A model generated the notes under the pieces. The model made no database searches. It was not told the DNA's origin and saw nothing but the letters and a program-made list of their open reading frames with translations. Shown in pieces: positions 5,528 through 51,553 of a stretch of DNA of 64,000 nt. Source of the DNA: a bacterium (lineage in GTDB: Bacteria > Patescibacteriota > Minisyncoccia > Phycocordibacterales > UBA6065). Made by a program: the position numbers and the translations under genes. The stretch covers positions 357,000 to 420,999 of the forward strand of contig JAUXUT010000149.1 in assembly GCA_030680695.1 (NCBI GenBank), given 5' to 3'. Every line of letters begins with the position of its first letter. Within the stretch, counting starts at the first letter, position 1.

Positions 5528-5579
5528 GGGAGTTGATTGGTCTTGATGGTTTCTTTATCTGCCTTGAGTCGTAGAAGCG

Positions 5580-6536: not shown

Positions 6537-6548
6537 TGGTCAGCCAAA

Positions 6549-7142
6549 TTGTATTATCCGCTGGAACTTCTCTCTTCAACCCCCCCCCTTGTTCCTATGC
6601 ATATCTATATTGGATTGAGTAGCAGTCAGGTCTTCTCGGTTGTCCTTGGTCTGATTCTGCTGGTTGCGGCGATTGTGTTGGCCGTGATTAACCTCAAGCA
6701 AATCGCGGCAAACGGCAAAAAGCCACGTGTGACCATCAAGGTTCATACGCGGCTCGCCCACAGCAACTACAACGATTTGCCGTGTGACGTTTTCATCGTT
6801 CAGACACGGCCAGTCGGGGCAAATGGTGAACTCGTACGCGAGGCAATCGAACGGTCGGGGTACGCCTTCCCGAAGGAACTCATCACCGAATGGCTCACCA
6901 GTCATGCGTCGCTCCTACCTAAGGACGCGACGATTCTGGTCGAACTCAAACCACCCCAAGGCGACCAGAAAGCAGTGGTGACGGAAATCATCACTGACAT
7001 CGCCGGAAGGCCGTACCATGTCGGCACGATGGACTGCTTCCCGTCAGCGGACAGAGTATTTTACGCCGTCGTTGCGACAGAGGACGTCGCTGATACAATT
7101 CCGTATCGGTCAAAAAACAAATTGGTTCCGCATCGTGCGTGA
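6549..7142 (+). CDS. hypothetical membrane-anchored protein
   Basis: One N-terminal TM helix and no recognisable motif. Ends with a TGA stop. Confidence 0.35.
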   Translation: MYYPLELLSSTPPLVPMHIYIGLSSSQVFSVVLGLILLVAAIVLAVINLKQIAANGKKPRVTIKVHTRLAHSNYNDLPCDVFIVQTRPVGANGELVREAIERSGYAFPKELITEWLTSHASLLPKDATILVELKPPQGDQKAVVTEIITDIAGRPYHVGTMDCFPSADRVFYAVVATEDVADTIPYRSKNKLVPHRA

Positions 7143-10619: not shown

Positions 10620-10648
10620 TTGAGAAAAGCTCTCCTTTAGTGTAGATT
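10620..10648 (+). promoter_or_regulatory. promoter for tRNA-Leu(CAA) and the downstream endonuclease (TTGAGA-17-TAGATT)
   Basis: TTGAGAaaagctctcctttagtgTAGATT; the -10 element ends about 10 nt before the tRNA 5' end. Confidence 0.35.
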
Positions 10649-10658
10649 TTGCATGTAT

Positions 10659-10739
10659 GCCGAGGTGGCGAAATGGCAACCGCAATCGACTCAAAATCGA
10701 TCGTCGCAAGACTTGAGGGTTCGAGTCCCTCCCTCGGCA
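10659..10739 (+). tRNA. tRNA-Leu (anticodon CAA), class II
   Basis: GCCGAGG acceptor pairs with CCTCGGC; anticodon stem ATCGA/TCGAT with loop CTCAAAA; long variable arm; T-arm GAGGG-TTCGAGT-CCCTC. Confidence 0.8.
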
Positions 10740-10740
10740 C

Positions 10741-11316
10741 ATGATGCATACGCCCAATACAGCCTATATCGTAGGGGTGGCTCTTGGCGACGGGAATCTC
10801 TCTAATCCCAATGGTCGAGCCGTCAGGCTGCGTATAACGTGTGACAAAAAGTACCCGAAGGTTATAGAGAACATACTGATATCATTGAGAGTGGGTCTTC
10901 CTGACAACAAGGTAAGTCTCGTGTATCGGAATGCTCGATGCCTTGATATATCATGTTATTCAAATAAGCTTGAGAACTTACTCGGATGGCGAGCCGATCT
11001 TGGCTCGAAATACCTTCAAAGGGTTCATGTGCCTTCTTGGATATTCAGAGATCCCTGGCTTATCCGACCATGCGTTCGCGGTCTTATAGAGACTGATGGG
11101 TGTGTGTTCACTGACAGGGGCTATACTCATGTCAACTTCACGACTATTATTCCGGAACTAGCGACAGATATGGAAAGAATGCTCACAATTCTGGGATTTA
11201 CGTATTCGACTCAACTAATAATTGCGAAAAGCTCAAATCGTAAGCCAAAATATGTCATAAGGATTTGCAAAAGAGGCAAAGAGTTCGTGGACGAATTTGG
11301 TATAGACAAAAATTAG
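10741..11316 (+). CDS. LAGLIDADG homing endonuclease, two-motif single-chain type
   Basis: VGVALGDGNL and VRGLIETDGCV are the two LAGLIDADG motifs. The ATG lies 1 nt after the tRNA-Leu 3' end. Confidence 0.75.
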   Translation: MMHTPNTAYIVGVALGDGNLSNPNGRAVRLRITCDKKYPKVIENILISLRVGLPDNKVSLVYRNARCLDISCYSNKLENLLGWRADLGSKYLQRVHVPSWIFRDPWLIRPCVRGLIETDGCVFTDRGYTHVNFTTIIPELATDMERMLTILGFTYSTQLIIAKSSNRKPKYVIRICKRGKEFVDEFGIDKN

Positions 11317-11356
11317 TTTTGCAAATAAGACTCACCACTGATAATACTGCCTATAT

Positions 11357-12265
11357 ATGAAGAAACAATTACCGAAAATAATCGTTGTATGCGGCCCCAC
11401 CGCGACCGGCAAGAGCGATCTTGCCGTGCTTTTGGCGCGCGAACTCGACGCTGAAATTGTATCGGCAGACTCGCGCCAAGTGTACAGGGGTATGGACATC
11501 GGGTCAGGTAAAATCACCGCGCGCGAAATGAAAAAAATCCCACATCATCTCCTCGACGTTGCCGACCCGCGCAAGGCGCGATACACCGTTGATGATTTCA
11601 AGCGCGACGGTGAAGCGGCCGTGGCGGATATTCTTTCACGCGGCAGGCTCCCTATCATCTGCGGCGGCACAGGATTTTATATCGACGCCTTGGTCAAAGG
11701 TGAAACATATCCAGATGTGCCGCCGAACCAGACATTGCGCAAACAACTCGCCAACAAAACTGTGGTGCAGCTCATGGCAATGATCCGGAAACTCGACCCT
11801 CGTCGTGCAAAAACCCTCGACCCATTCAACAAAGTCCGCATCATACGCGCGATCGAAATCGCGAAAACCCTAGGCTCGATTCCTAAAGTCCGACGCGCGC
11901 CAAAATACAATGCCTTCTACATCGGCCTCACCCTCGACAAAGAATCTTTGCGAGAAAAGATACACGTTCGTCTTATAAAACGTATCAAAGCCGGCATGGT
12001 CGTCGAAGTGGCGAAACTGAAGACTTCTGGAGTCTCATGGAAACGCCTAGAGGCTTTCGGTCTCGAATACCGATACGTTGCGCTCTACCTCCAGAAAAAA
12101 CTGACAAAAGACGAGATGCTCGCCCAACTCGAATCAGAAATCGTCAGATATGCCCGCCGCCAAATGCAGTGGTTTACGAAGAACAAAGGCATATTGTGGT
12201 TATCGCCAGCCGAAAAACAAAAGGCTCTCATTTCAGCCAAAAAATACTTGAGGGTGTCCGCCTAA
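11357..12265 (+). CDS. miaA: tRNA dimethylallyltransferase
   Basis: IIVVCGPTATGKSDLAVLLA...SADSRQVYRGMDIGSGK matches the MiaA P-loop region. Confidence 0.9.
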   Translation: MKKQLPKIIVVCGPTATGKSDLAVLLARELDAEIVSADSRQVYRGMDIGSGKITAREMKKIPHHLLDVADPRKARYTVDDFKRDGEAAVADILSRGRLPIICGGTGFYIDALVKGETYPDVPPNQTLRKQLANKTVVQLMAMIRKLDPRRAKTLDPFNKVRIIRAIEIAKTLGSIPKVRRAPKYNAFYIGLTLDKESLREKIHVRLIKRIKAGMVVEVAKLKTSGVSWKRLEAFGLEYRYVALYLQKKLTKDEMLAQLESEIVRYARRQMQWFTKNKGILWLSPAEKQKALISAKKYLRVSA

Positions 12266-13413
12266 ACATTAGGCTTTTTCCGTTTAAGATACTCTTTCCC
12301 TTTCAACTTTTCCGGCAGGAAGCTCTCCTTATCGTATTTCTTATAATCTTTACCTTGCCCGAGCTCTTTCATGAGTTTGGTCGGTGCGTTTCGAATCTTC
12401 ATCGGCACCGGCAGGTTACCGTACCTCTTTACATCTTCAATCGCGGCAAAGTAAGCGTCATGCGAAGAGCGATCCTTGGCGGCGAGGGCGAGATATGCCA
12501 CGCCATGGGCGAGGTTAATGCCGGCCTCTGGCATGCCGATAGTCTCGACGGCGCGAAACACCTCGTTCGCCACCACGAGCGCCGTCGGTTGGGCGAGGCC
12601 GATGTCTTCTGAAGCGAATATGACCATCCTGCGAGCGATGAATTTCGGATCTTCCCCACCCTCGACCATACGTGCGAGATAATATATCGCCGCGTCTGCG
12701 TCACCGGACCGCATAGATTTTATAAAAGCCGAAATGGTGTCGTAATGCTCGTCACCTTTCTTATCGAAACGGATAAAAACTTGTTCGAAAGCAGACTTGA
12801 GGTTGCTTATCGTCACCGATCCGTACATGCGCTTGGCGTTTTCGAGCGCTGTGATGGCGATACGAGCATCGCCGTTTGCGAGATTTGCGAGCCAATCAAG
12901 AGCGTCCTTAGGAATCTTTATCTTGGTTCGCTTCAATATCTTCTTGATTTCGTCTTCTGAAAGGCTCTTGAGCACGAACACGCGGCAACGTGAGAGAAGC
13001 GCGGAATTCACTTCGAAACTCGGATTTTCTGTGGTGGCACCAATAAGGATAAGCTTGCCCGACTCGACAGACGGCAAAAGAAAATCCTGCTGTGCCTTAT
13101 TAAAACGATGTATCTCGTCGAGGAACAATACTTTCTGGCGCTGATCGAGAAGGTTCATATCGTCCACGATACGGCGTATGTCGTCCTTGCTCGCCGACAC
13201 GGCGGACAATTCATAAAAACGTGCGTCGAGGGCGTTCGCGTATATGCGAGCCAAAGTCGTCTTGCCGACGCCTGGCGGACCCCACAGTATGAATGAGAAC
13301 AGGTGCCTGTCCTCGATGGCCTTACGCAAGGGCTTTTCCTTCCCCACGATTTCATCCTGTCCGACGAAATCGTCAAGTGTCTCTGGCCTAATTTTGTTAG
13401 CTAGGGGTTCCAT
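12262..13413 (-). CDS. rarA: replication-associated recombination protein A (AAA+ ATPase)
   Basis: LWGPPGVGKTTLARIYA Walker A, the MgsA/RarA arrangement, and a C-terminal helical lid. Confidence 0.85.
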   Translation of the reverse strand: MEPLANKIRPETLDDFVGQDEIVGKEKPLRKAIEDRHLFSFILWGPPGVGKTTLARIYANALDARFYELSAVSASKDDIRRIVDDMNLLDQRQKVLFLDEIHRFNKAQQDFLLPSVESGKLILIGATTENPSFEVNSALLSRCRVFVLKSLSEDEIKKILKRTKIKIPKDALDWLANLANGDARIAITALENAKRMYGSVTISNLKSAFEQVFIRFDKKGDEHYDTISAFIKSMRSGDADAAIYYLARMVEGGEDPKFIARRMVIFASEDIGLAQPTALVVANEVFRAVETIGMPEAGINLAHGVAYLALAAKDRSSHDAYFAAIEDVKRYGNLPVPMKIRNAPTKLMKELGQGKDYKKYDKESFLPEKLKGKEYLKRKKPNV

Positions 13414-13483
13414 ATCGTTAATACGCAGAATTCTACACTATCTTTGTAAAAGGCGCGGACGATATGTTATGCTCAGCCCGTAT

Positions 13484-13557
13484 GGGCGATTAGTTAAGTG
13501 GCATAACGAGGCACTCCAAACGCCTTGTCGGGGGTTCGATTCCCTCATCGCCCGCCA
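13484..13557 (+). tRNA. tRNA-Trp (anticodon CCA)
   Basis: GGGCGAT acceptor pairs with ATCGCCC; loop CTCCAAA; T-arm GGGGG-TTCGATT-CCCTC; CCA is encoded. Confidence 0.85.
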
Positions 13558-13577
13558 GGTATTAGCATGCAACGAAC

Positions 13578-13880
13578 GTGAACCCTTTCACCCTCAACAT
13601 GCCAATCGGTTTCATTGCCTGTTGGATTCAACGAGATGACGATGTCATCCTCACCAAAGAAGCGAATCATTACGGTTATGTATCCGACGTATACATCGAA
13701 GAAACTTGGAGAGGTAAAGGTGTCTTCCAAATACTTCTACAGAAAACTATCGATCATCTCAAGACGCGTAACGTGCAATCAATCAAACTAAATGTTGTTG
13801 CACAAAATGAACGAGCGCTCGCAGCTTACTTAAAAGTAGGATTTAAATCTGAAGAGATCAGTCTTCGAATGAAAATATAA
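13578..13880 (+). CDS. GNAT-family N-acetyltransferase, N-terminally truncated (C-terminal half only)
   Basis: YVSDVYIEETWRGKGVFQILLQ is GNAT motif A (R-x-x-G-x-G). At 100 aa it is too short for a complete GNAT fold. It starts 20 nt after tRNA-Trp. Confidence 0.45.
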   Translation: MNPFTLNMPIGFIACWIQRDDDVILTKEANHYGYVSDVYIEETWRGKGVFQILLQKTIDHLKTRNVQSIKLNVVAQNERALAAYLKVGFKSEEISLRMKI

Positions 13881-13968
13881 AAAGTGTATAACTCTATTGT
13901 GCTCTCGCGCACGCATCTTACAATTAGAGTAGGTCGCATTATTCGAAAACATAACAACAGCTACCGAA

Positions 13969-14082
13969 ATGGTTCGAAAGACCAAAAAATCCGCTCGCAA
14001 AGTTGTTCGCAAAGTAAAGAAGACGGTCAAGCGAACGGTGAAGAAAGCGAAGAAGGCAAAGCGCTCCTCTAAGCGCCGATAG
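13969..14082 (+). CDS. 37-aa polybasic small protein (hypothetical)
   Basis: Unlisted ORF: MVRKTKKSARKVVRKVKKTVKRTVKKAKKAKRSSKRR. It has an upstream TTCGAA-17-TATAAC promoter-like element and a shared terminator immediately downstream. Confidence 0.3.
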   Translation: MVRKTKKSARKVVRKVKKTVKRTVKKAKKAKRSSKRR

Positions 14083-14094
14083 CCAAAAAGAAAA

Positions 14095-14128
14095 CCGCCC
14101 CAGATTTGTCTGAGGCGGCTTTCTTTTA
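14095..14128. terminator. bidirectional terminator shared by the polybasic ORF (+) and rpmG (-)
   Basis: CCGCCCCAGAtttgTCTGAGGCGG stem with T-runs on both strands. Confidence 0.6.
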
Positions 14129-14281
14129 TTTCTTGCTTTCCTTGAAGATGACGCGCTTGCGGAGTTTCTTCGAGTACTTCTTGAGCTCGATTTTGCGCTC
14201 TACCTTGCGCTTGTTTTTGCGAGTGTGGTAGACCTCGCCGGTCTCCTTGTTTCGCAGAATAATGAGTTGGTCCTGGGACAT
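14126..14281 (-). CDS. rpmG: 50S ribosomal protein L33 (Cys-less form)
   Basis: MSQDQLIILRNKETGEVYHTRKNKRKVERKIELKKYSKKLRKRVIFKESKK matches the L33 consensus Y-x-T-x-KNKRN...LELKKY. The true start is MSQ. Confidence 0.75.
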   Translation of the reverse strand: MSQDQLIILRNKETGEVYHTRKNKRKVERKIELKKYSKKLRKRVIFKESKK

Positions 14282-14324
14282 ATGGGTAAAAATGATGTTC
14301 GAAGATATTATCACGAGGCCACCT

Positions 14325-15479
14325 TTACCGCAAGTATACGCGCGGCAAAAGCGGATTAATACGAGTCACTATCTCGTAATTTATGGTACCTGCTCGCGAT
14401 GCCAGCGCCTCGGCAGATATCGAGGTCTTCCCTTGCTTGCCAAGCAGAACGACCTCGTCACCAGCCTTGACCAACGGAATGTCTGTTACATCAATCACAG
14501 TCATGTCCATCGACACGCGGCCAAGGACCTTTGCAAGCTTGCCGCCGACAAGCACTTCGCCAGAGTTCGAAAGGCTTCGCGGAAAGCCGTGCCAGTATCC
14601 GACAGGTATAACGGCAATGCGTGAATCGCGCGTTGCTTCACATGTGAGATCATATCCGATCAGTGCGCCTTTCGGCACGAGCTTCACTTCGTTCACAATG
14701 GTCTTCCATGACAACACTGGGGTAAGAGAAATGCCAGGTAAGACACGGCGTGAGTGTGCCTCAATTTCTGGTGACGGCCACAAACCATAGATGGCGATGC
14801 CTGCACGAGCCATATCAAAATAATAATCTGGCGAAAAAAGAAGTCCTGAACTCGCAGATGCGTGGGTGATGGGTGTAAAACCTTTTTCGCGCAAACGAAA
14901 AATTACTGATTTAAAAGCCCCCGCCTGCTTGAGCGAATAATCTTCGTGGGCCGGGTCTTCCATCGCCGCGAAATGCGTGTATGCACCTTCGATGATTGCT
15001 TTTGTCTCGAAGGTCTTGCCTTCCATGACACGCACAGCTTGTTGGACTTGAGACTCGGGTATACCTTGGCGATGAAGACCAGTATCGAACTTCACATGGA
15101 TTTTTAAACGCCTGAACAGCTTTGCCTTGGCAAGAGCACGTAGACTGTCGAGGGACGAGATGGTGAGAGATACTCCTTTTTTTGCCGCAGTCTCGTAAAG
15201 TTCAGGCATGGTGAAGCCTAGGACTAGTACTGGTGACTTAATGCCGGAAGTGCGCAATTCCAAAGCTTCAGCGAGCTCGTCTACCGCGATCCAGTCTGCC
15301 CCGCCTTTTAATGCGGCCTTGGCACATTCAACCATGCCATGGCCATAAGCATTGGATTTAACCACAGCCATCATAGCTGCCCTACCAGATAGAGCAGATT
15401 TAAGTACCGCAGTGTTGCGCGCGATTGCGCCAAGATTGACCTCAAGCCATGTACGGTACGACTGAGACTTAATCTTCAT
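14325..15479 (-). CDS. alr: alanine racemase
   Basis: AVVKSNAYGHG is the PLP-lysine motif, within a 385-aa Alr fold. The true start is the MKIKSQ ATG at 15479; the track's extension runs through tRNA-Tyr. Confidence 0.8.
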   Translation of the reverse strand: MKIKSQSYRTWLEVNLGAIARNTAVLKSALSGRAAMMAVVKSNAYGHGMVECAKAALKGGADWIAVDELAEALELRTSGIKSPVLVLGFTMPELYETAAKKGVSLTISSLDSLRALAKAKLFRRLKIHVKFDTGLHRQGIPESQVQQAVRVMEGKTFETKAIIEGAYTHFAAMEDPAHEDYSLKQAGAFKSVIFRLREKGFTPITHASASSGLLFSPDYYFDMARAGIAIYGLWPSPEIEAHSRRVLPGISLTPVLSWKTIVNEVKLVPKGALIGYDLTCEATRDSRIAVIPVGYWHGFPRSLSNSGEVLVGGKLAKVLGRVSMDMTVIDVTDIPLVKAGDEVVLLGKQGKTSISAEALASRAGTINYEIVTRINPLLPRVYLR

Positions 15480-15488
15480 AATATTTTG

Positions 15489-15571
15489 TGCGCCGAGAGG
15501 GACTCGAACCCCCGATGCCCAGTGGGCGGGAGATTTACAGTCTCCTGGAATAGCCGCTATCCGATCGGCGC
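15489..15571 (-). tRNA. tRNA-Tyr (anticodon GTA), class II
   Basis: GCGCCGA acceptor pairs with TCGGCGC; anticodon stem GGAGA/TCTCC with loop CTGTAAA; long variable arm; T-arm GGGGG-TTCGAGT-CCCTC. Confidence 0.85.
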
Positions 15572-15658
15572 ATATGCTGGCAAATACTACTCTATCAGAT
15601 TTCACCAGTGAGGCAAATGAAAAGCCGCCACGTGGCGGCTTTTCCTGGTGACGTCGGA

Positions 15659-18346
15659 CTATACCGCCTTCTCACGCACGACTTCTTCCTCGCCGTCTAG
15701 TTCTTTGAGCTGTACCGGTCTCCTGCCCTTCTTCACGTCAAATGTGAAGTGCTCGCCCTTCATACCGACAGATATTGATCCGCCCTTGCCTACACCCTGA
15801 GATATCATGAAGCTCGCGATCTGGGTGAGAATCTTTTCCTGAATGAGACGCTTCAACGGGCGCGCACCGAACTTTGGATCATATCCTTCTTTTGCGAGAT
15901 ATTCGCTGACGGCCGGTGACACGTCGAGTTTGATTTCCTTGTCTGCAAGGCGCTTCACCACGATTTCTATCTGGATTTTTACAATCTCTTTAATAGCTTC
16001 CGGTGAAAGGACATCGAAGAGAATAATCGAATCAAGACGGTTCAAGAATTCTGGCCTGAAGTAGTCCTTGAGGCTGTCCATAACCTTTGCCTTCACGTCT
16101 TCGTATTTTCTTTGTTCCGACAAATCAGACGAGAAGCCGATTCGTTCCATCTTGTCTATGTACTGCGCACCGATGTTTGAAGTGAGAATAATGACAGTAT
16201 TTTTGAAGTTTACAGTGCGACCTTTGGTGTCGGTGAGACGACCATTGTCGAGCACCTGCAGAAGTATGTTGAACACCTCTGGATGGGCTTTCTCGATTTC
16301 GTCGAATAGAATGACAGAATAAGGGCGATGACGGACCATTTCTGTAAGAGAGCCGCCCTCCTCGTATCCAACATATCCTGGAGGCGCACCGATGAGTTTA
16401 GACGTCGAATGTTTATCCATGAACTCTGACATGTCTACACGAATGAGGGACTTTTCATCGTTGAACATGAATTCGGCCAATGCCTTGGTGAGTTCGGTCT
16501 TACCGACGCCGGTTGGACCAAGGAAAAGGAATGAGCCAATAGGCCTGTTTGGGTCGGCGATGCCTGCACGGGCGCGACGGATGGTGTCTGCTATTGACTT
16601 CACTGCCTCGCGCTGGCCGACAACTCGACGATCAATTTCGCTTTCCATGCGCATGAGCTTCTGAACCTCTTCTTCAAGCATCCTTGAAACCGGTATGCCG
16701 GTCCATTTTGAAACAACGATCGCGATATCTTCTTCGGTGATCTCTTCTTTGAGTATGCGACGAGATGTCTGATTTTTCTTGAGTTTCTTTTGCTTGGCAT
16801 CGAGTTCTTTCTCGAGGAGAGGAATCTTGCCGTATCTGATTTCGGCGGCCTTGGCGAGGTCGGCCTTAAGCTCTGCGGCTTCGGCTTCCAGGCGCAATTG
16901 CTCAAGGTCTTTCTTGTTCGACTTGATGCCTGTTATTAACTCTTTCTCGTTCTTCCATTTAAGTTCGAGCTCTTGGGTTGATTCCTTGAGATCAGCTATG
17001 TCTTTTTCTATGGCCTTAACGCGAGCTTTTGGCGCCTTTTCTGTCTCTTTTTTAAGGGCTTCGCGTTCAATTTCAAGACGCATGATTTTCCTGTGCGTTT
17101 CTTCGAGAAGAGGCGGCTTTGATTCGAGCGAAATCTTCAGGGACGATGCTGCCTCGTCGATAAGATCCACAGTTTTGTCTGGAAGGAATCGGTCTGATAT
17201 ATATCGGGATGAAAGGTTTACCGCCGCGACAATAGCGTCATCTGTGATGCGCACACCATGGTACACCTCGTACTTTTCCTTGAGGCCACGAAGTATTGCA
17301 ATGGCATCTTCGATAGAAGGCTCGGTGACGTGCACTGGTTGGAATCGTCGGGTAAGTGCCGGGTCTTTCTCGATATGCTTTTGGTATTCCTTGAGTGTCG
17401 TCGCGCCTATTGCACGGAGTTCGCCACGAGCAAGCGATGGTTTGAGCATGTTCGACGCATCCATCGATCCTTCAGCAGCGCCAGCACCGACGATTGTATG
17501 TATCTCGTCTATGAAAAGAATTATGCGGCCTTCCGAACGCTCGATTTCCTTCATTATGTTCTTGAGGCGCTCTTCGAATTCACCACGGTACTTCGTGCCG
17601 GCAACGAGCTGGCCCAAGTCGAGCAACATGAGTTCCTTATCCTTGAGCGATTCAGGTACGTCGCCCTGAGCCATGCGTAATGCGAGACCTTCAACGATGG
17701 CGGTCTTGCCCACACCTGCTTCACCGATGAGCATTGGGTTATTTTTGGTACGGCGCGAAAGAATCTGGATGATGCGGCTGATTTCTTTGTCGCGTCCAAT
17801 GACGGGATCTAGTTTGTTCTCGGCAGCCATCTTGGTGAGGCTCTTGGTGTATTTGGCGAGGGCGCGAGGCTTCTTCGGAGCATGAGGTTCTGAAGTTTTT
17901 GCGGTTTTGAGGTCTTCGAGAACGTTCACAACCGCCGGGCGACCGATTTTGAAACGTGCGAGGAGTTCTTGTGCTGGTCCAGGTATATCAAGAAGGGCGA
18001 TGAATAGATGTTCGGTTGATATGAACTCGTCCTTGAGTTCGGCTGCGATTTTAGCGGAGCTTTCAAGCGCCTGGGCTAGTTCAGGTGTTAGATATATCTG
18101 ATACGACTGGGAAAGCGTGGCACCAGCACCTGTGCCTTCAAGGGACTCGGCGATGGAGTCAGAGAGCAATATAAGATCTACCTCGAGCTTCTCGAGTATG
18201 GCGTTGACCATGCTCTCTTCCTGAAGGATAAGAGCCGACAATAGATGAAGTGGATTGACGTGGTTCTGGCCACGCTCAATAGCGAGCTCATGAGCTCGTC
18301 TGATGGCTTCTTTTGCTTTGGTTGTGAAATGATTAAGGGGTGGCAT
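15659..18346 (-). CDS. clpB: ATP-dependent chaperone ClpB
   Basis: Clp N-domain, two AAA+ modules (GEAGVGKT and GPTGVGKTE) and a ~120-aa coiled-coil M-domain between them. Confidence 0.9.
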
Positions 18347-19094
18347 ATGGTTTTATGATATCCGAAGCTATGAAGGAATTAGGTGGAGATGAGGCATTTT
18401 TCATACCAATCACCTCGCCTAAGAGATTAACAAGTATGGCGTGGGTGTCAAAAGCCGCATCGCGCACCGATGCCTCGATATATGAGCTGTTTTTGGAAGA
18501 AACTATACCTGTAGCGACGCGAGGCGTTGCTCCCCCACCAATCGCGACGACTGCCTGACCGAGGCTAGCATCGGCGGAATCGGCGAACCGCACGGCACTG
18601 TAAACGCGGGCGTCAAAACGACTTTCAGATTGTTCAGCCGATAAAATAGTGACGCCCGCGTTCGAGTCGTATGACACTGGAAAAAGCGGTACGGAATTTC
18701 CGCCATCGAGTCTTGCCACAAGTGGACCGCCGCTGTTTAGGCCGAGGCGGGCAATGACGCGGCCGGAGGAATTAGCGATGACGCCGAGGCCGACGAACTC
18801 TTCTGTAGATCCCGGCCTTGTTGCAAAAATCCTGACGATGCCTTTGGACGCTATTGCTATTGCTTTGACTACCGCCTCGTCGTCGCGAACAACTATGGTT
18901 TCCTTGGTTGCAGGCGAGTCATCGGACGAGACTCGTTCAATGGTCCTTTCGACCACGCGATTAATCGTCTGTGTGACCGGTGTGCCTGCGCCCTGTTCCA
19001 TAAGAGACACTGTGACAATGCCTGTCGCTATCGAGGACACGAAGCTCACAAGGAGGGCGAGGAGGATGATCTGTTGTTTGTTGAGCTGCTCCAT
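18333..19094 (-). CDS. membrane-anchored divergent trypsin-like (S1C/HtrA-like) domain protein, probably non-catalytic
   Basis: N-terminal TM helix. An LNSGGPLVARLDGG Ser-motif-like segment sits where His is expected, and a second, Ser-less copy of the same region follows (DAAFDTHAILVNLLGEVIGM, compared with HtrA DAAIN-GNSGG-LVNL-GELIGI). The gene overlaps the clpB start by 14 nt. Confidence 0.4.
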   Translation of the reverse strand: MEQLNKQQIILLALLVSFVSSIATGIVTVSLMEQGAGTPVTQTINRVVERTIERVSSDDSPATKETIVVRDDEAVVKAIAIASKGIVRIFATRPGSTEEFVGLGVIANSSGRVIARLGLNSGGPLVARLDGGNSVPLFPVSYDSNAGVTILSAEQSESRFDARVYSAVRFADSADASLGQAVVAIGGGATPRVATGIVSSKNSSYIEASVRDAAFDTHAILVNLLGEVIGMKNASSPPNSFIASDIIKPYATP

Positions 19095-19108
19095 ATAGAT
19101 GAATGATA

Positions 19109-20344
19109 CTACGGATTCTGTGCGAGCATCTCGAGAGCATCGGCTATCCTGTCCACATCCCGCTCATCGATGTCAGGGTCTAGAGTGAACCTCAAAGTGT
19201 TTCTAGACCGCCAACCCTTGCCCTTCAACATAGCGGCAACGACATAAGAATCCTCCTCGCCTTTGAGGCATGAACTCTTGGTCGAGCAAGCGATGCCCAT
19301 CTCGTCGAGCTTGATTACAGCAAATTCAGGATCGGATATGTTTGGAAGCGACACGTTTAAATTATTTGGAAGACGGCGTTCGAGCGTGCCATTGATAGCA
19401 GCATCTGGTATGCGGCGCTCGATATGGGTGACGAGACGATTGCGCATCGCTTTCGCTTTCACGACGCGCGCGTCGCGCCCTTTGTGGGCGAGCTCAAAAG
19501 CCTTGGTAAAACCTGCGATGAGTTCAAGGCTTTCAGTCGTGGCGCGCATGCCGCGTTCCTGTCCCCCGCCGAGGATTAGCGGTGCGCATTCAATACCTCG
19601 GCGTAAGACAAGCGCGCCGACGCCTTTCGGACCCTGCATTTTATGCCCATCCAGTGTCATGGCGTCGGCGCGCATACCTTCCATATCACATGACATCCAC
19701 AACGGCGTCTGGCAAGCATCGACGTGGAATATCGGGTAATCGCTTTCCCTCTCTGCTTTGAGCTTGCGCAGACCGGCACCAATGCGCGACACCTGTTGTA
19801 CTGTACCGATTTCGTTGTTTGCGAGCATACACGTGACAAGCACAGTGTTCGGGCGTACAGCGGCAAGGATGTCTTCGGCGCGGACCACACCATCCTGGCC
19901 GGGGTCGACGAAGGTGATTTTGGCGCCGAGCGAAGCGAGGCGCCTTAATGGTTCGAGCACTGACGAGTGCTCGATCGATGTTGAAACTAAATGCAAATCA
20001 TTTGCATTTGCACCAGCGGCCATACAGGCATCGGTAATGCCACGAATGACAGTATTATTCGCCTCGGTGCCTCCAGATGTGAAATAAACTTCGTCCGGCC
20101 TTGCAGAAACGATATGTGCACAAGAGGTACGGAACGACTCGAGTATTCGTTTTGCCTCGACACCCTCTCGATACAAAGATGATGGATTCGCGGCAGTGCG
20201 ACGAACCGAAGCCATCGCATCTTTCACTTCAGGATGCATCGGTGCGGTAGCCGCCCAGTCTGCATAGATACGCCGAGCCGCTCCGAGAAGCGATAAGCGT
20301 GCCGGACCAGAAAAACTCGATACAAGGTTAGAGAAGAAGGACAT
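19109..20344 (-). CDS. cysteine desulfurase (NifS/IscS class V aminotransferase)
   Basis: FTSGGTEANN and SGHKMQGPKGVGAL (PLP-Lys) motifs. Confidence 0.85.
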   Translation of the reverse strand: MSFFSNLVSSFSGPARLSLLGAARRIYADWAATAPMHPEVKDAMASVRRTAANPSSLYREGVEAKRILESFRTSCAHIVSARPDEVYFTSGGTEANNTVIRGITDACMAAGANANDLHLVSTSIEHSSVLEPLRRLASLGAKITFVDPGQDGVVRAEDILAAVRPNTVLVTCMLANNEIGTVQQVSRIGAGLRKLKAERESDYPIFHVDACQTPLWMSCDMEGMRADAMTLDGHKMQGPKGVGALVLRRGIECAPLILGGGQERGMRATTESLELIAGFTKAFELAHKGRDARVVKAKAMRNRLVTHIERRIPDAAINGTLERRLPNNLNVSLPNISDPEFAVIKLDEMGIACSTKSSCLKGEEDSYVVAAMLKGKGWRSRNTLRFTLDPDIDERDVDRIADALEMLAQNP

Positions 20345-20397
20345 GCGAACATGATACGAGGCGCGCGACTAAAAAACAAATAAAAAGCTGATAAACA

Positions 20398-20904
20398 TTG
20401 CTTCAAGCCGCTTTTTCGGCTAGTATAAACCGCATGACGATCTCTCCTGACATGCTGATTGGTATCCTCATAGGCCTCGTCGCTATCGTCGCGTTGGGGC
20501 TTATCCGCCTTGAAGTGAAGCTCCGCAGGCTCTGCCGCGGCGCACAGGGCAAAGACCTTGAGGCAAGCATGAACAAGATGCATGACGGCATCGAATCGTT
20601 GCAGAAATTCGAGACGGAATCGAAGTCATATTTCAAGAACGTTGAACGTCGCTTGCGAAGATCCGCCCAGGCCGTAGACGTCGTCAAATTCAACGCCTTC
20701 AAAGGTGACGGCCTGGGCGGAAACCAGTCCTTCGCCGCCGCCATCCTCGACGAGGACGGCAACGGCGCCGTCATATCGAGCCTCTACTCCCGTGACCGTG
20801 TTTCTGTATTCTCGAAACCGATAAAACGGTTTGCCGGCGAGATTGAACTTTCCCAGGAAGAAACCGACGCTGTGTCCCGCGCCAAGGCCAAACTGTCTGC
20901 ATAA
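20398..20904 (+). CDS. DUF4446-family membrane protein
   Basis: N-terminal TM, then VVKFNAFKGDGLGGNQSFAAAILDEDGNGAVISSLYSRD, matching the DUF4446 core pattern (V-R-Y-N-A-F...QSFS-x-ALLD). The likely start is MTISPDM at 20434. Confidence 0.55.
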   Translation: MLQAAFSASINRMTISPDMLIGILIGLVAIVALGLIRLEVKLRRLCRGAQGKDLEASMNKMHDGIESLQKFETESKSYFKNVERRLRRSAQAVDVVKFNAFKGDGLGGNQSFAAAILDEDGNGAVISSLYSRDRVSVFSKPIKRFAGEIELSQEETDAVSRAKAKLSA

Positions 20905-20953
20905 CGACGAGAAATGAACCGACACCCACACCAGAATCTATACGTACACCAAC

Positions 20954-22510
20954 ATGGCAAAGAAAACCGCACAACAGAATACGACTGTAAAACCAACCGC
21001 TTCGGAAAAGCGTCCACCTGTCGTGGCTGTGATGGGTCATATCGACCACGGTAAATCGACACTTCTCGACTACATCCGAAAATCTAACGTCGTAGACACC
21101 GAAGCTGGCGGAATCACTCAACGCATCAGCGCCTACGAAGTAACCCGGAAATCAAAAAGCGGCACAGAAGAACGTGTCACATTCATCGACACCCCGGGAC
21201 ACGCTGCCTTTTCTGGTATGCGTGAACGAGGCGCAACCACTGCTGACATATGCATACTCGTCGTTTCATCAGAAGACGGCGTCAAACCTCAAACCGTCGA
21301 GGCTTACAAACAAATTAAAACCGCGGGTGTACCGTTCATCGTCGCTATCACCAAAATAGACAAGCCGACCGCGAACGTCGAACGTGCAAAGATTTCGCTC
21401 GCCGAGAATGAAATATACCTAGAAGGCTACGGTGGCGATATCTCATACGTACCTGTATCTGCTAAATCAGGCGATGGTATCGACGATCTCCTCGAACTCA
21501 TACTCCTTACCGCAGAAGTCGCGGAATTCAAGGGCGACCGCAATGCCCTCGCATCGGGCTCGATCATCGAAGCTCATCGCGATCCAAAGAAAGGCATCAG
21601 CGCGACACTTATTGTAAAAGACGGTTCTCTCGGTACTGGCCAGTTCGTTGCGTGCGGAAGCGCTTGGTCCCCTACCCGCATGCTTGAAGATTTCGCTGGT
21701 AAAAAAATCGTCACAGTATCTTTCTCATCCCCACTACGCGTCATCGGCTGGAACGAGGCTCCACAGGTCGGCGGACAGTTCGTCACGTTCGCATCGAAAT
21801 CTGACCTGGAAGACCATCTTGAAACCATACGCGAGTCCAAACTCCGTCCCGTAAACAATCCTGGTGCACCAATCGCCGCGCCCAAGGTGCCAGAAGAGTC
21901 AGACAAGGCCTCGCTCCCGCTCATCATCAAAGCCGACGTCCTTGGCTCGGCCGAAGCTATCGAAAAAGAACTCTCGAAACTCGGTAACGAACGTATCGCA
22001 CCAAAAATCATCCTCGCATCGATAGGAGACATAACCGAATCAGACATCAAAGTTGCAGGCGGTGGCACAGACACCGTAGTACTCGGCTTCAACGTTCGTA
22101 TGGATAGCCAGGCCAAGGCCATGGTCGAACGCCTCGGAATCTCGTACCAATCTTTCGACATCATCTACAAGCTTATCGAATGGGTCGACGAGCTCATCAA
22201 ACAGCGCACCCCGAAAGTCGCAGCCGAAGAAATTGTCGGTAAGGCAAAGATACTCAAGTACTTCAGCGCCATGAAAGACAAACAAATCGTAGGAGGCAAG
22301 GTCATAGACCGAGAAATCGGCCTCGGCCATATCGTGAAAATCGTCCGCCGCGAAACCACCATCGGTCAGGGCGTCATCCGCGAGCTCCAACAGGCCAAAG
22401 TCAAGACATCGACGGTGAAAGAAGGCTTTGAATTCGGCGCCATGATCGATTCCAAGATCGAGCTCGCCCCAGGCGACGTACTCGAAGATTTCGTGGTCGT
22501 GGAAAAATAA
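20954..22510 (+). CDS. infB: translation initiation factor IF-2 (short form lacking N-terminal domains)
   Basis: VVAVMGHIDHGKSTLLDYIRKSNV G-domain, then domains II and C1/C2. Confidence 0.9.
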   Translation: MAKKTAQQNTTVKPTASEKRPPVVAVMGHIDHGKSTLLDYIRKSNVVDTEAGGITQRISAYEVTRKSKSGTEERVTFIDTPGHAAFSGMRERGATTADICILVVSSEDGVKPQTVEAYKQIKTAGVPFIVAITKIDKPTANVERAKISLAENEIYLEGYGGDISYVPVSAKSGDGIDDLLELILLTAEVAEFKGDRNALASGSIIEAHRDPKKGISATLIVKDGSLGTGQFVACGSAWSPTRMLEDFAGKKIVTVSFSSPLRVIGWNEAPQVGGQFVTFASKSDLEDHLETIRESKLRPVNNPGAPIAAPKVPEESDKASLPLIIKADVLGSAEAIEKELSKLGNERIAPKIILASIGDITESDIKVAGGGTDTVVLGFNVRMDSQAKAMVERLGISYQSFDIIYKLIEWVDELIKQRTPKVAAEEIVGKAKILKYFSAMKDKQIVGGKVIDREIGLGHIVKIVRRETTIGQGVIRELQQAKVKTSTVKEGFEFGAMIDSKIELAPGDVLEDFVVVEK

Positions 22511-22532
22511 TCGATAATATAAACCTAACGAC

Positions 22533-22856
22533 ATGGCATTCAGCAAAACACGATTCGAGGAACTAATTCGCGAGCTCGCCTCGAAATTCCTATCTATGGA
22601 ATCGAACAGGACTTCCCTCATCACGGTGACGCGTGTCGAATCAGACCCAAAGGGATCTGTAGCAAACATATACTTCACCGTGTTCCCCGACACCCAACAG
22701 AACGCGGCGCTTGATTTTGTAAAGCGTCAGAGGAGCGAATTTCGTGCATTCCTCAAGAATAACGCCCGTCTCATGCGCATTCCACACGTAGATTTCCATA
22801 TCGATGCTGGTGAACGCAGCCGTCAAAAAATTGACGGGCTCATGGGAGGGCTTTAG
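22533..22856 (+). CDS. rbfA: ribosome-binding factor A
   Basis: 107 aa with a KH-like RbfA pattern (…NRTSLITVTRVESDPKGSVANIYFTV…). Confidence 0.8.
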   Translation: MAFSKTRFEELIRELASKFLSMESNRTSLITVTRVESDPKGSVANIYFTVFPDTQQNAALDFVKRQRSEFRAFLKNNARLMRIPHVDFHIDAGERSRQKIDGLMGGL

Positions 22857-22885
22857 GATTATTTTATCTGCCCCGCATTCCACCT

Positions 22886-22916
22886 TTCTTCCCATCGTCC
22901 TAAAATTGGACGATGG
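22886..22916 (+). promoter_or_regulatory. perfect 12-bp stem hairpin sequestering the start codon of the downstream homing endonuclease
   Basis: TTCCCATCGTCC-taaaatt-GGACGATGGGAA; the 3' arm contains the ATG at 22913. Confidence 0.35.
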
Positions 22917-23590
22917 GAATACGACATACAGTAAACGAAGTCTTCTTTAGAGATTGGAACCCGAGGATGGCCTACACACTCGGTTACATATTCGCCGACG
23001 GATGTCTTGAGTATTACCCACGATTCAGACAAAAATATGTATCGATAGCAAGTACAGACAAAGATACACTAGAAAGACTGAGAGACTGGATGGATTCAAA
23101 ACATAGGATATCATCGCGCAAATCACCGCATGCTAATGGTGCTCAAATATTTGTACTCCGAATCGGAAATGCGAGACTCTACGATTCACTTACGCTACGA
23201 GGACTTTATCCGAGAAAATCTCTGACCGTGCCTTTTCCCCAAGTACCAAAAGATATACTCCATCATTTTGTGAGAGGCTACTTCGATGGCGATGGCTGTG
23301 TCGCACTTGAAAAAGTGATAAGAAAATCAGGCGCCATACGTCCACGCAAGCTCAATGTCATATTCACCTCAGGAAGCGAGACCTTTCTTCATAACCTCGC
23401 TTTAGCTCTAGAGCGATTCTCCTGCGTTAAGCCGCAAAATATCATACGAGCGTGGACCGCATTCCAACTGCGGTATTCCACAACAGACAGCGAGGCACTG
23501 TTTCGCTTTATGTATTCGGATGCGACTGACGACGAGTATCTTAAAAGAAAACATGCTATATTCATTGAGCATTTTTCCTTGAAGTCCTAG
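22913..23590 (+). CDS. LAGLIDADG homing endonuclease, two-motif type (second copy, different subfamily)
   Basis: LGYIFADGCL and VRGYFDGDGCV motifs. The stop codon overlaps the first nt of tRNA-Cys. An alternative start at MAYTLGY is possible. Confidence 0.7.
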   Translation: MGIRHTVNEVFFRDWNPRMAYTLGYIFADGCLEYYPRFRQKYVSIASTDKDTLERLRDWMDSKHRISSRKSPHANGAQIFVLRIGNARLYDSLTLRGLYPRKSLTVPFPQVPKDILHHFVRGYFDGDGCVALEKVIRKSGAIRPRKLNVIFTSGSETFLHNLALALERFSCVKPQNIIRAWTAFQLRYSTTDSEALFRFMYSDATDDEYLKRKHAIFIEHFSLKS

Positions 23591-23657
23591 TGGCGAAGCT
23601 GGTTAACGCGACGGTCTGCAAAACCGTTATTCGCCGGTTCGATCCCGGCCTAGGACT
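23584..23657 (+). tRNA. tRNA-Cys (anticodon GCA)
   Basis: GTCCTAG acceptor pairs with CTAGGAC; anticodon stem ACGGT/ACCGT with loop CTGCAAA; T-arm GCCGG-TTCGATC-CCGGC. Confidence 0.85.
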
Positions 23658-51475: not shown

Positions 51476-51552
51476 GCGCGCTTAGCTCAGTTGGCTAGAG
51501 CATCTCATTGACGTTGAGAGGGTCGGGGGTTCAAGTCCCTCAGCGCGCACCA
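51476..51552 (+). tRNA. tRNA-Val (anticodon GAC)
   Basis: GCGCGCT acceptor pairs with AGCGCGC-A-CCA; TAGCTCAGTTGGCTAGAGC D-arm; anticodon stem TCTCA/TGAGA with loop TTGACGT. Confidence 0.85.
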
Positions 51553-51553
51553 C

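What the first reader, a model, noticed from the sequence alone, without database searches (positions are those of the whole stretch)
10659..23657. Two free-standing LAGLIDADG homing endonucleases, each physically abutting a tRNA gene
The first endonuclease (10741-11316) begins 1 nt after tRNA-Leu(CAA). The second (22913-23590) ends inside the first 7 nt of tRNA-Cys, and its ATG is buried in a perfect 12-bp hairpin (22886-22916). They belong to different subfamilies, so they are not recent duplicates. Both are double-motif single-chain enzymes and neither sits inside an obvious intron or intein, as both tRNAs are intact. tRNA-adjacent, intron-less homing endonucleases are uncommon. The arrangement suggests tRNA-linked homing targets, or domesticated endonucleases expressed by tRNA co-transcription under tight translational control.
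Basis: partly seen in the sequence, partly recalled or inferred. Interest (0 to 1): 0.55.

Follow-up and report, generated by a model that had tools for sequence, protein, structure and literature searches.

The report
Homing endonuclease genes docked on tRNA ends
Two unrelated LAGLIDADG endonuclease genes in this ultra-small (Patescibacteria) bacterial genome sit flush against the ends of two tRNA genes, and each belongs to a large family found at that same tRNA in many other genomes but missing from the closest relatives, which points to selfish genes that have made tRNA gene boundaries their home.

Summary
HE1 (10741-11316) starts one base after tRNA-Leu(CAA). HE2 (22913-23590) stops 7 nt inside tRNA-Cys(GCA). 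Its ATG lies in a perfect 12-bp hairpin, which is at 22889-22919, not 22886-22916. Both are two-domain LAGLIDADG proteins with intact catalytic Asp residues, and no intron or intein surrounds them.

The adjacency is a family property, not a coincidence. About 70 of 81 HE1 homologue loci lie directly 3' of tRNA-Leu(CAA), roughly half with the start codon 0-5 nt from the tRNA. About 60 of 80 HE2 homologue loci lie directly 5' of tRNA-Cys, and most read into the tRNA. More distant branches sit at tRNA-Asp, Met and Leu(UAA). Only 1 of 81 phage-borne relatives is next to a tRNA.

Synteny is conserved, yet nine relatives chosen without regard to the endonucleases have the same tRNAs with empty sites. 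HE1 divergence does not track host divergence. The tRNA alleles linked to the endonucleases are unusually diverged. Some HE1 loci keep a displaced second tRNA 3' end.

Best reading: free-standing, mobile homing endonuclease genes living in tRNA leaders and trailers, co-transcribed with the tRNA and removed by tRNA end-processing. Cleavage is untested. I found no published description. It is a new variant of a known kind.

The parts
10620..10648 (+). Promoter-like site TTGAGA-N17-TAGATT, 10 nt before tRNA-Leu(CAA). Probable promoter of the tRNA-HE1 transcript.
   Evidence: Consensus scan. The same TTGAGA...TAGATT motif lies upstream of tRNA-Leu(CAA) in relatives with and without HE1.
10659..10739 (+). 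tRNA-Leu(CAA). Intact, no encoded CCA, discriminator A at 10739.
   Evidence: ARAGORN and Rfam at 58.5 bits. 99% identical to the tRNA of HE1-bearing L170, but 74-85% identical to those of HE-less relatives depending on the identity measure.
10741..11316 (+). HE1, a 191-aa free-standing LAGLIDADG endonuclease gene. Motif 1 is at 10765-10800 (catalytic D17) and motif 2 at 11071-11106 (D119).
   Evidence: PF14528, E = 4e-9. Invariant residues. Model pLDDT 94.2, with top fold matches I-Tsp061I and I-DmoI. About 70 of 81 homologue loci lie directly 3' of tRNA-Leu(CAA).
11317..11356 (+). 40-nt spacer between the HE1 stop and the miaA ATG. It contains the promoter-like site TTTGCA-N16-GATAAT (11318-11345) and a weak candidate remnant of a tRNA 3' end (aagactcaccactgata, about 11327-11343).
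   Evidence: The remnant scores 1.6, between the 95th and 99th percentiles of controls, so it is not significant on its own. In HE-less L161 and L166 the miaA ATG abuts the tRNA directly.
11357..12265 (+). miaA (tRNA isopentenyltransferase), the conserved right-hand flank of the HE1 site.
   Evidence: Pfam IPPT, E = 1e-62. Synteny.
22533..22856 (+). rbfA, the conserved left-hand flank of the HE2 site.
   Evidence: Pfam RBFA. Synteny infB-rbfA-HE2-tRNA-Cys. In HE-less relatives rbfA ends 0-81 nt before tRNA-Cys.
22889..22919 (+). Perfect 12-bp inverted repeat (hairpin). The 7-nt loop (22901-22907) holds a -10-like TAAAAT (22901-22906) ending 6 nt before the ATG. The 3' arm contains the HE2 start codon.
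   Evidence: In L169 the 5' arm has four changes, all wobble-compatible. 13 of 54 family members have a comparable start-codon hairpin at z <= -2. 23 of 56 have TTGCAG-N16-18-TATAAT 5-8 nt (mostly 6) before the start codon, against 0.9% of control positions.
22913..23590 (+). HE2, a 225-aa free-standing LAGLIDADG endonuclease gene. Motif 1 is at 22973-23008 (D29) and motif 2 at 23267-23302 (D127). The last 7 nt are also the first 7 nt of tRNA-Cys.
   Evidence: PF14528, E = 3.5e-11. Profile match to the PDB entry 2dch, E = 3.7e-7. Model pLDDT 91.2. dN/dS = 0.09 against L169. About 60 of 80 homologue loci lie directly 5' of tRNA-Cys.
23584..23657 (+). tRNA-Cys(GCA), intact. Its allele is very different from that of HE-less relatives.
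   Evidence: 61-67% identical to the tRNA-Cys of seven HE-less relatives, which are 84-96% identical to one another. Nearly identical to the tRNA-Cys of HE2-bearing L169.

Best explanation
HE1 and HE2 are free-standing LAGLIDADG homing endonuclease genes from two lineages. Each lineage has specialised on the boundary of one tRNA gene: HE1 on the 3' end of tRNA-Leu(CAA), HE2 on the 5' end of tRNA-Cys(GCA).

Shown:
- The position is conserved across each family.
- The fold and catalytic residues are intact.
- Close relatives have empty sites in the same synteny.
- HE1 phylogeny is discordant with the host.
- The tRNA alleles next to the endonuclease genes are unusually diverged.
- Some HE1 loci carry a second, displaced tRNA 3' end.

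Inferred:
- The enzymes cut endonuclease-free alleles in or next to the tRNA gene. Repair from an occupied allele then copies the endonuclease gene together with the adjacent, presumably resistant, tRNA allele. This is intronless homing with co-conversion.
- The ORF lies in the transcribed 5' leader or 3' trailer of the tRNA precursor. Ordinary tRNA end-processing (RNase P at the 5' end, RNase Z or similar at the 3' end) therefore removes it from the mature tRNA. This makes the insertion harmless, as splicing does for intron- or intein-borne endonucleases.
- HE1 is transcribed from the tRNA-Leu promoter and is probably translated as a leaderless mRNA after 3' processing.
- HE2 has a -10 box 6 nt before its ATG, so it is leaderless from its own start site. 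The hairpin would mask the ATG on read-through transcripts from rbfA.
- Because the HE2 stop codon lies inside the tRNA, RNase P cleavage would leave a non-stop mRNA, which should keep expression low.
For: Family-wide adjacency:
- HE1 family: 70 of 82 profile hits lie beside a same-strand tRNA-Leu(CAA). Most exceptions are contig ends or a masked tRNA.
- An ATG lies 0-5 nt after the tRNA end in 31 of 70 loci, and several more loci have a TTG at +1.
- HE2 family: 61 loci lie directly 5' of tRNA-Cys. In 37 of 59 the ORF ends inside the tRNA; in the rest it ends 0-18 nt before it.
- Deeper branches sit at tRNA-Asp, tRNA-Met and tRNA-Leu(UAA).
- Negative control: 1 of 81 distant relatives on viral contigs has a tRNA within 150 nt.

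Active-enzyme features: invariant catalytic Asp in both motifs; two-domain fold matching I-Tsp061I and I-DmoI; HE2 dN/dS = 0.09.

Mobility:
- Synteny is conserved: topA-parB-tRNA-HE1-miaA and infB-rbfA-HE2-tRNA-Cys.
- Nine distinct relatives anchored on ClpB (76-88% identity) have both tRNAs but neither endonuclease: 0 of 9 for HE2, 0 of 7 for HE1.
- The insertion sizes (616 and about 700 nt) equal the ORFs plus short spacers.
- HE1 distance correlates with ParB and TopA at 0.09 and 0.13, whereas ParB correlates with TopA at 0.62.
- Discordant pairs exist. Window and L043 have ParB 84% but HE1 51%. L004 and L009 have ParB 44% but HE1 71%.
- HE-less L161 is closer to the window in host proteins than the HE1 carriers L170, L001 and L043. 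Yet the window shares its tRNA-Leu allele (99%) with L170, not with L161 (85%).
- At equal host distance, tRNA-Leu identity is 90% between HE-less genomes, 80% between an HE-bearing and an HE-less genome, and 78% between HE-bearing genomes.
- The window's tRNA-Cys is 61-67% identical to that of its relatives, which are 84-96% identical to each other.
- 6 of 68 HE1 loci carry a strong second copy of a tRNA-Leu 3' end just after the HE1 stop, against 0.19% of controls. Its sequence differs from the intact tRNA's own tail. L049 and L062 have a degenerate tRNA piece between the intact tRNA and HE1.

Expression: promoter-like sites and hairpin data.
Against: - No cleavage activity, target site or homing event has been observed. 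All mobility evidence is comparative.
- Between carriers that are close relatives, the endonucleases diverge about as fast as ordinary proteins. Window against L170: HE1 65%, miaA 64%. Window against L169: HE2 85%, infB 79%. Much inheritance is therefore vertical.
- HE2's dN/dS of 0.09 would also fit a host-beneficial gene.
- No degraded endonuclease pseudogenes were found at empty sites, so the classic invade-decay-lose cycle is not documented.
- The non-tRNA half of any junction-spanning target is poorly conserved between genomes. This makes cross-lineage homing by simple double-strand-break repair harder.
- tRNA remnants are clear in only about 9% of HE1 loci and absent for HE2.
- The tRNA allele comparisons rest on three HE1 carriers and short sequences.
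- ORFs that start flush with a tRNA are common in these genomes. The geometry may reflect the host's operon style rather than the endonuclease's insertion point.
Confidence: 0.6

Rival explanations
1. Domesticated or host-beneficial LAGLIDADG proteins. Each is kept next to 'its' tRNA gene because it serves that locus. It could be a WhiA-like DNA-binding regulator of the tRNA operon, a maturase-like RNA chaperone, or a guardian that destroys foreign copies of the tRNA gene.
For: Strong purifying selection on HE2 (dN/dS 0.09). Many invariant residues at about 50% family identity. The same tRNA partner and synteny recur across very distant lineages. Divergence looks vertical between closely related carriers. 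Intact ORFs predominate among the loci found.
Against: Absent from nine relatives chosen independently of the endonucleases, all of which keep the tRNAs. A conserved host role is therefore unlikely. The catalytic Asp residues are retained rather than degenerate as in WhiA. The WhiA model is not met (13.2 bits against a cut-off of 44.1; no HTH domain). HE1 phylogeny is uncoupled from the host. Duplicated tRNA ends flank some copies.
Confidence: 0.2
2. Stranded relics. These would be former homing endonuclease genes, perhaps once in tRNA or rRNA introns, that are now immobile and inactive. They would persist only because they are co-transcribed with a tRNA and cost little.
For: Patescibacteria carry many LAGLIDADG genes in rRNA introns and group I introns in tRNAs (PMC11270868, PMC13011429). 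No homing event is documented here.
Against: Full-length ORFs with invariant catalytic residues across hundreds of clusters, and dN/dS of 0.09, are not what neutral relics show. No intron RNA was detected. The tRNAs are uninterrupted, and the family sits at tRNA ends, not at anticodon-loop intron positions.
Confidence: 0.1
3. Cargo of a larger mobile element. The endonuclease genes would be passengers of an integrase-type island or prophage that targets tRNA genes, not autonomous elements.
For: tRNA genes are classic integration sites. A minority of HE1 loci show a direct repeat of the tRNA 3' end, as att sites would.
Against: Comparison of empty and occupied sites shows insertions of only about 620 and 700 nt, lying between conserved housekeeping genes. 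No integrase or other cargo is present. Close relatives are essentially absent from viral contigs.
Confidence: 0.03

Closest known systems
Free-standing homing endonucleases of T-even phages, 'intronless homing' (notably SegB in the T4 tRNA gene cluster; PMC2330249)
   Same: The endonuclease gene lies in an intergenic position between conserved genes and next to tRNA genes. Related genomes show presence or absence of it. The proposed spread is by cleavage of the endonuclease-free allele with co-conversion of neighbouring markers.
   Different: SegB is a GIY-YIG enzyme in a phage. Here the enzymes are LAGLIDADG enzymes in bacterial chromosomes. Each subfamily is tied to one tRNA identity and to one end of the tRNA. 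The ORFs are flush with, or overlap, the mature tRNA sequence. Cleavage has been demonstrated for SegB but not here.
LAGLIDADG endonucleases in rRNA introns of Patescibacteria/CPR (PMC11270868) and the archaeal rRNA-intron enzymes I-DmoI and I-Tsp061I
   Same: Same protein superfamily and same monomeric two-domain fold. Same host phylum. Both exploit a highly conserved structural-RNA gene.
   Different: Those genes sit inside introns or insertions that interrupt the rRNA. HE1 and HE2 do not interrupt the RNA gene and have no ribozyme. They sit exactly outside the mature ends.
Group I introns in Patescibacteria tRNA genes (PMC13011429)
   Same: Same phylum, and tRNA genes serve as the niche for selfish elements.
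   Different: Those elements are in the anticodon loop (positions 35/36 and others), mostly lack endonuclease genes, and the few that have one encode HNH enzymes. That paper does not mention endonucleases flanking tRNAs.
Mitochondrial tRNA punctuation
   Same: ORFs directly abut tRNAs on one or both sides. In L141 and L149 the endonuclease ORF starts right at the end of tRNA-Met; in L141 it runs 10 nt into tRNA-Asp, and in L149 it stops 9 nt before it. This implies mRNA ends made by tRNA processing and leaderless translation.
   Different: This is a bacterial chromosome. Stop codons are not completed by polyadenylation; the HE2 stop lies inside the tRNA. Processing has not been shown.
WhiA (domesticated LAGLIDADG DNA-binding protein)
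   Same: Bacterial, free-standing, two LAGLIDADG-like domains. Some database entries label HE1 relatives as WhiA.
   Different: WhiA has an extra C-terminal HTH domain, has lost the catalytic residues, and is universally conserved in its clades. HE1 scores 13 bits against a cut-off of 44, keeps both Asp residues, and is patchily distributed.

Membership tests
LAGLIDADG homing endonuclease (PF14528 LAGLIDADG_3) | Sequence match above the curated threshold | tested here: met
   HE1 scores 37 bits and HE2 43.6 bits, against a cut-off of 22.5.
LAGLIDADG homing endonuclease (PF14528 LAGLIDADG_3) | Two LAGLIDADG helices, each ending in a catalytic acidic residue | tested here: met
   HE1 D17 and D119, HE2 D29 and D127, invariant in 27 and 26 aligned relatives.
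LAGLIDADG homing endonuclease (PF14528 LAGLIDADG_3) | Pseudo-dimeric alpha-beta-beta-alpha-beta-beta-alpha fold | tested here: met
   Models have pLDDT 94 and 91. Foldseek top hits are I-Tsp061I (E about 1e-9), I-DmoI, I-AniI and PI-SceI.
LAGLIDADG homing endonuclease (PF14528 LAGLIDADG_3) | Site-specific cleavage of a long (about 20 bp) DNA target | not testable with these tools
   This needs purified protein and substrates made from endonuclease-free alleles.
Intron- or intein-encoded homing endonuclease | The ORF is embedded in a self-splicing intron or an intein that interrupts a host gene | tested here: not met
   Rfam found only tRNAs at gathering thresholds. Both tRNAs are intact. The ORFs are stand-alone, and the insertions equal the ORF plus short spacers.
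Free-standing homing endonuclease / intronless homing (Seg/Mob type) | The gene is inserted between conserved genes and is present or absent among related genomes | tested here: met
   Synteny is conserved. Empty sites occur in nine relatives anchored on ClpB.
Free-standing homing endonuclease / intronless homing (Seg/Mob type) | Co-conversion of flanking markers with the endonuclease gene | tested here: inconclusive
   tRNA alleles linked to the endonucleases are more diverged than host distance predicts. The window shares its tRNA-Leu allele with carrier L170 rather than with the closer HE-less L161. The samples are small and the sequences short.
Free-standing homing endonuclease / intronless homing (Seg/Mob type) | The enzyme cuts the endonuclease-free genome near the insertion point | not testable with these tools
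   No biochemical data.
WhiA | Match to the equivalog model TIGR00647, a C-terminal HTH domain, and loss of the catalytic residues | tested here: not met
   13.2 bits against a cut-off of 44.1. HE1 is 191 aa with no extra domain. The catalytic Asp residues are retained.
Integrase-type tRNA-targeting island | A recombinase gene and cargo bounded by direct repeats of the tRNA 3' end | tested here: not met
   No recombinase is present and the insert is about 0.6-0.7 kb. tRNA 3'-end repeats occur in only 6-14 of 68 HE1 loci.
tRNA-punctuated expression (mitochondrial type) | ORFs abut tRNAs with no spacer | tested here: met
tRNA-punctuated expression (mitochondrial type) | mRNA ends generated by RNase P and RNase Z, and leaderless translation | not testable with these tools
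   This needs mapping of transcript ends.

The most novel reading that the evidence does not exclude
tRNA end-processing may serve as a third way, beside self-splicing introns and inteins, for homing endonuclease genes to live harmlessly in highly conserved genes. On this reading, whole LAGLIDADG lineages in Patescibacteria have each adapted to one tRNA identity and one tRNA end. They travel together with part or all of the tRNA, which would explain the replacement alleles, the displaced tRNA ends and the dual-coded overlaps between ORF and tRNA. They would be expressed as leaderless mRNAs made by tRNA processing or by a promoter placed at the start codon.
Probability: 0.4. Interest if true: 0.8.

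Novelty: new variant of a known kind. Interest (0 to 1): 0.66.

Why it matters
Homing endonucleases are thought to survive in conserved genes only by hiding in introns or inteins, or by sitting loosely between phage genes. A family-wide docking on exact tRNA ends, specific to tRNA identity, in the very small genomes of Patescibacteria would define a new niche for selfish genes.

It would also have practical consequences:
- It would explain a recurrent class of 'hypothetical' or 'WhiA-like' genes, and the annotation artefacts in which ORFs are extended through tRNAs.
- It would indicate gene flow and tRNA allele replacement in an uncultured phylum.
- It would supply many natural LAGLIDADG scaffolds whose targets could be predicted from empty alleles.
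- It exposes tRNA-punctuated, probably leaderless gene expression in these bacteria.

Tried and rejected
1. Mirror-image remnant for HE2. A position-weight scan for a displaced tRNA-Cys 5' end upstream of HE2 found 1 of 53 loci, no better than controls. Matching each locus to its own tRNA showed no covariation (5.22 against 5.29). The GTCCTA repeat in the window and in L169 is therefore treated as chance.
2. Hidden intron or other RNA family. Rfam returned only tRNAs.
3. Degraded HE1 pseudogenes in the longer tRNA-miaA gaps of L252, L164 and L163. None was found with maximum-sensitivity HMM and tblastn searches.
4. WhiA membership. Rejected.
5. Sequence search of the PDB with the HE1 profile. 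It gave only spurious BamA hits. The fold search was needed instead.
6. Phage origin. There is no close HE1 relative in viral contigs. Only distant HE2-like genes occur there, and they are not next to tRNAs.
7. Co-phylogeny of HE1 with its tRNA. The correlation is -0.02; the tRNA is too short to be informative.
8. Universal translational masking by the hairpin. Only 13 of 54 relatives have a hairpin at z <= -2.
9. Literature. Searches found papers on rRNA-intron LAGLIDADG genes and on tRNA introns in this phylum, but none describing endonuclease genes flanking tRNAs. The library does not cover all journals.

Full report
**Source and context.** The window is a bacterial chromosome with housekeeping genes: topA, parB, miaA, rarA, alr, clpB, a short infB and rbfA. 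It has eleven scattered tRNA genes. Exact copies of HE2 and ClpB lie on a 649-kb NCBI contig labelled only 'MAG: bacterium'. The nearest relatives are named Paceibacterota, Taylorbacteria or Patescibacteria. This is a Patescibacteria (CPR) genome.

**The observation.** It holds.
- tRNA-Leu(CAA) ends with discriminator A at 10739. One C follows, then the HE1 ATG at 10741.
- The HE2 stop TAG (23588-23590) lies in the acceptor stem of tRNA-Cys, which starts at 23584.
- Both proteins pass the PF14528 threshold.
- Each has two LAGLIDADG motifs with invariant catalytic Asp residues.
- Both give confident two-domain models whose best structural matches are I-Tsp061I and I-DmoI.
- The two proteins resemble each other only at the motifs.
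- The hairpin is a perfect 12-bp inverted repeat at 22889-22900 / 22908-22919, with z = -6.6. That is 3 nt from the stated coordinates.
- Rfam finds no intron or other RNA family.

**The adjacency is a family trait.** The first clue came from gene calls of homologues. They carry N-terminal extensions (HE1) or C-terminal extensions (HE2) that are in-frame translations of tRNA-Leu(CAA) and tRNA-Cys.

I fetched 80 HE1-family loci from species-representative genomes and 80 HE2-family loci from metagenomes.
- HE1: 70 of 82 profile hits are directly 3' of a same-strand tRNA-Leu(CAA). Most exceptions are contig ends, or a tRNA partly masked by Ns.
- An ATG lies 0-5 nt from the tRNA end in 31 of 70 loci. 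Several more loci start with TTG at +1.
- HE2: 61 hits are directly 5' of tRNA-Cys(GCA). In 37 of 59 the ORF runs into the tRNA and stops in the D-loop region, usually in the same frame. In the others it stops 0-18 nt before the tRNA.
- More distant HE2-like branches occupy the 5' side of tRNA-Asp, the 3' side of tRNA-Met, the 3' side of tRNA-Cys, or the 3' side of tRNA-Leu(UAA). In L141 and L149 one ORF fills the gap between tRNA-Met and tRNA-Asp: it starts flush with tRNA-Met in both, runs 10 nt into tRNA-Asp in L141, and stops 9 nt before tRNA-Asp in L149.
- As a control, only 1 of 81 distant relatives on viral contigs has a tRNA within 150 nt.

**Mobile or resident?** Synteny is conserved across lineages whose housekeeping proteins are only 40-80% identical: topA-parB(-)-tRNA-Leu-HE1-miaA and clpB...infB-rbfA-HE2-tRNA-Cys-tRNA-Leu(UAA)-tRNA-Lys. 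That allowed an unbiased sample.

All nine distinct genomes with DNA (ClpB 76-88% identical) have tRNA-Cys right after rbfA. Seven of them also cover the other site and have tRNA-Leu(CAA) between parB and miaA. None has HE1 or HE2. No pseudogene remnants are detectable.

The occupied sites differ from the empty ones by 616 nt (site 1) and about 700 nt (site 2). That is the ORF plus a short spacer.

Across carriers, HE1 divergence is almost uncorrelated with ParB or TopA divergence (0.09 and 0.13), while ParB and TopA correlate at 0.62. Clear discordances exist in both directions.

HE-less L161 is closer to the window in host proteins (ParB 89%, ClpB 88%) than the carriers L170, L001 and L043. 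The three carriers' HE1 proteins are only 50-65% identical to the window's.

The tRNAs tell the same story.
- At equal host distance, tRNA-Leu identity is 90% among HE-less genomes but 78-80% when a carrier is involved.
- The window shares a 99% identical tRNA-Leu with carrier L170, against 85% with L161.
- Its tRNA-Cys is 61-67% identical to those of the HE-less relatives, which are 84-96% identical to each other.

Six of 68 HE1 loci have a strong extra copy of a tRNA-Leu 3' end just after the HE1 stop (controls 0.19%). Its sequence differs from the intact tRNA's own tail. L049 and L062 have a decayed tRNA piece between an intact tRNA and HE1. These duplications suggest the endonuclease gene moves together with tRNA sequence.

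**Counter-evidence.** Between closely related carriers the endonucleases diverge like ordinary proteins. HE2 is under strong purifying selection, with dN/dS = 0.09. This fits an active, recurrently selected selfish nuclease, but also a beneficial gene. I therefore keep a domestication rival at about 0.2.

**Expression.**
- tRNA-Leu(CAA) has a conserved promoter-like TTGAGA-N17-TAGATT in both carriers and non-carriers. HE1 has no room for its own signals, so it must ride on that transcript.
- ORFs that start flush with a tRNA are general here. miaA abuts tRNA-Leu in HE-less L161 and L166. In the window, tRNA-Val is followed at +1 by an 888-aa ORF and tRNA-Tyr at +8 by alr. This suggests leaderless mRNAs produced by tRNA 3' processing, which is an inference.
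- In the HE2 family, 23 of 56 loci carry TTGCAG-N16-18-TATAAT ending 5-8 nt (18 of 23 at 6 nt) before the start codon, against 0.9% at control positions. This points to a leaderless transcript from the family's own promoter, which would also drive tRNA-Cys.
- The window keeps the -10 (TAAAAT) at the same 6-nt spacing, in the loop of the hairpin. The -35 is weak.
- The close relative L169 keeps the stem through four wobble-compatible changes. About a quarter of the family has a comparable start-codon hairpin.
- The hairpin would mask the ATG only on read-through transcripts from rbfA.

**Comparison with what is known.** The closest analogue is intronless homing by free-standing phage endonucleases, notably SegB in the T4 tRNA cluster (PMC2330249). 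LAGLIDADG genes in CPR rRNA introns (PMC11270868) and group I introns in CPR tRNAs (PMC13011429) are known. Those papers, and my other searches, do not describe endonucleases flanking tRNAs.

I file this as a new variant of a known kind: free-standing LAGLIDADG homing endonucleases whose niche is the exact boundary of a specific tRNA gene. The window is unusual among its close relatives in carrying two such elements.

Noticed in passing
window 51476-54220; window 15488-15571 and alr 14325-15605; L161 17093-18110; L166 15817-16799: Ordinary genes also start flush with tRNA 3' ends. tRNA-Val(GAC) is followed at +1 by an 888-aa ORF that I judged a P-type ATPase from its N-terminal sequence only (no domain search run). 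tRNA-Tyr is followed at +8 by alr. In HE-less relatives the miaA ATG abuts tRNA-Leu(CAA), which from prior knowledge should belong to the class of tRNAs that MiaA modifies. This suggests tRNA-punctuated, leaderless gene expression in this lineage.
   Followed up: partly
L166 16803-17081 (- strand): A 92-aa GIY-YIG domain ORF ends 3 nt before the 5' end of tRNA-Leu(CAA) in a relative that lacks HE1. A second nuclease family therefore uses a tRNA boundary.
   Followed up: no
L141 4927-5660; L149 1860-2600: A distant HE2-like ORF starts right at the 3' end of tRNA-Met(CAT) as called by ARAGORN. In L141 it ends 10 nt inside tRNA-Asp(GTC); in L149 it stops 9 nt before that tRNA. The ORF essentially fills the gap between the two tRNAs.
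   Followed up: partly
L140 and L144, about 5001-6570: There are two LAGLIDADG genes in one tRNA cluster: HE2-like, tRNA-Cys, tRNA-Leu(TAA), then a second HE2-like gene (29% identical) starting flush with tRNA-Leu(TAA).
   Followed up: no
L030 about 3100-3190; L056 about 4900-4990: Two HE1-family genes are not next to a tRNA. They share an upstream motif (gcgattttgaaaat.g...gcgagcttggtaaaataaa), which suggests another insertion context.
   Followed up: no
L044 9112-9540 (- strand): A second, 31%-identical HE1-like gene has its tblastn match 117 nt from tRNA-Tyr(GTA), and the profile-matched ORF reaches the tRNA. It is in a genome that also has HE1 at tRNA-Leu(CAA).
   Followed up: no
L253 4842-5462 (- strand): A 206-aa ORF with no Pfam hit and no match to either endonuclease profile lies between tRNA-Leu(TAA) and tRNA-Lys in an HE-less relative. 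It may be another tRNA-cluster insert of unknown kind.
   Followed up: no
database entries P0005, P0013, P0017, P0024, P0124, P0127, P0154 and others: Public gene calls for these families are often extended through the neighbouring tRNA, giving N- or C-terminal tails such as '...VGSSPTSGT' or '...SLQNCHARVRIPP'. Some entries are labelled WhiA. This is a systematic annotation artefact.
   Followed up: yes
L173 3001-3779: This is the only 'viral' contig (427 kb) with an HE2-like gene next to a tRNA (tRNA-Trp, 54 nt downstream). It could be a jumbo phage or a mis-binned cellular contig.
   Followed up: no
window 18333-19094 (- strand): A 253-aa ORF overlapping the clpB start has no Pfam hit here. 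Its counterparts in relatives show weak Trypsin_2 hits.
   Followed up: no
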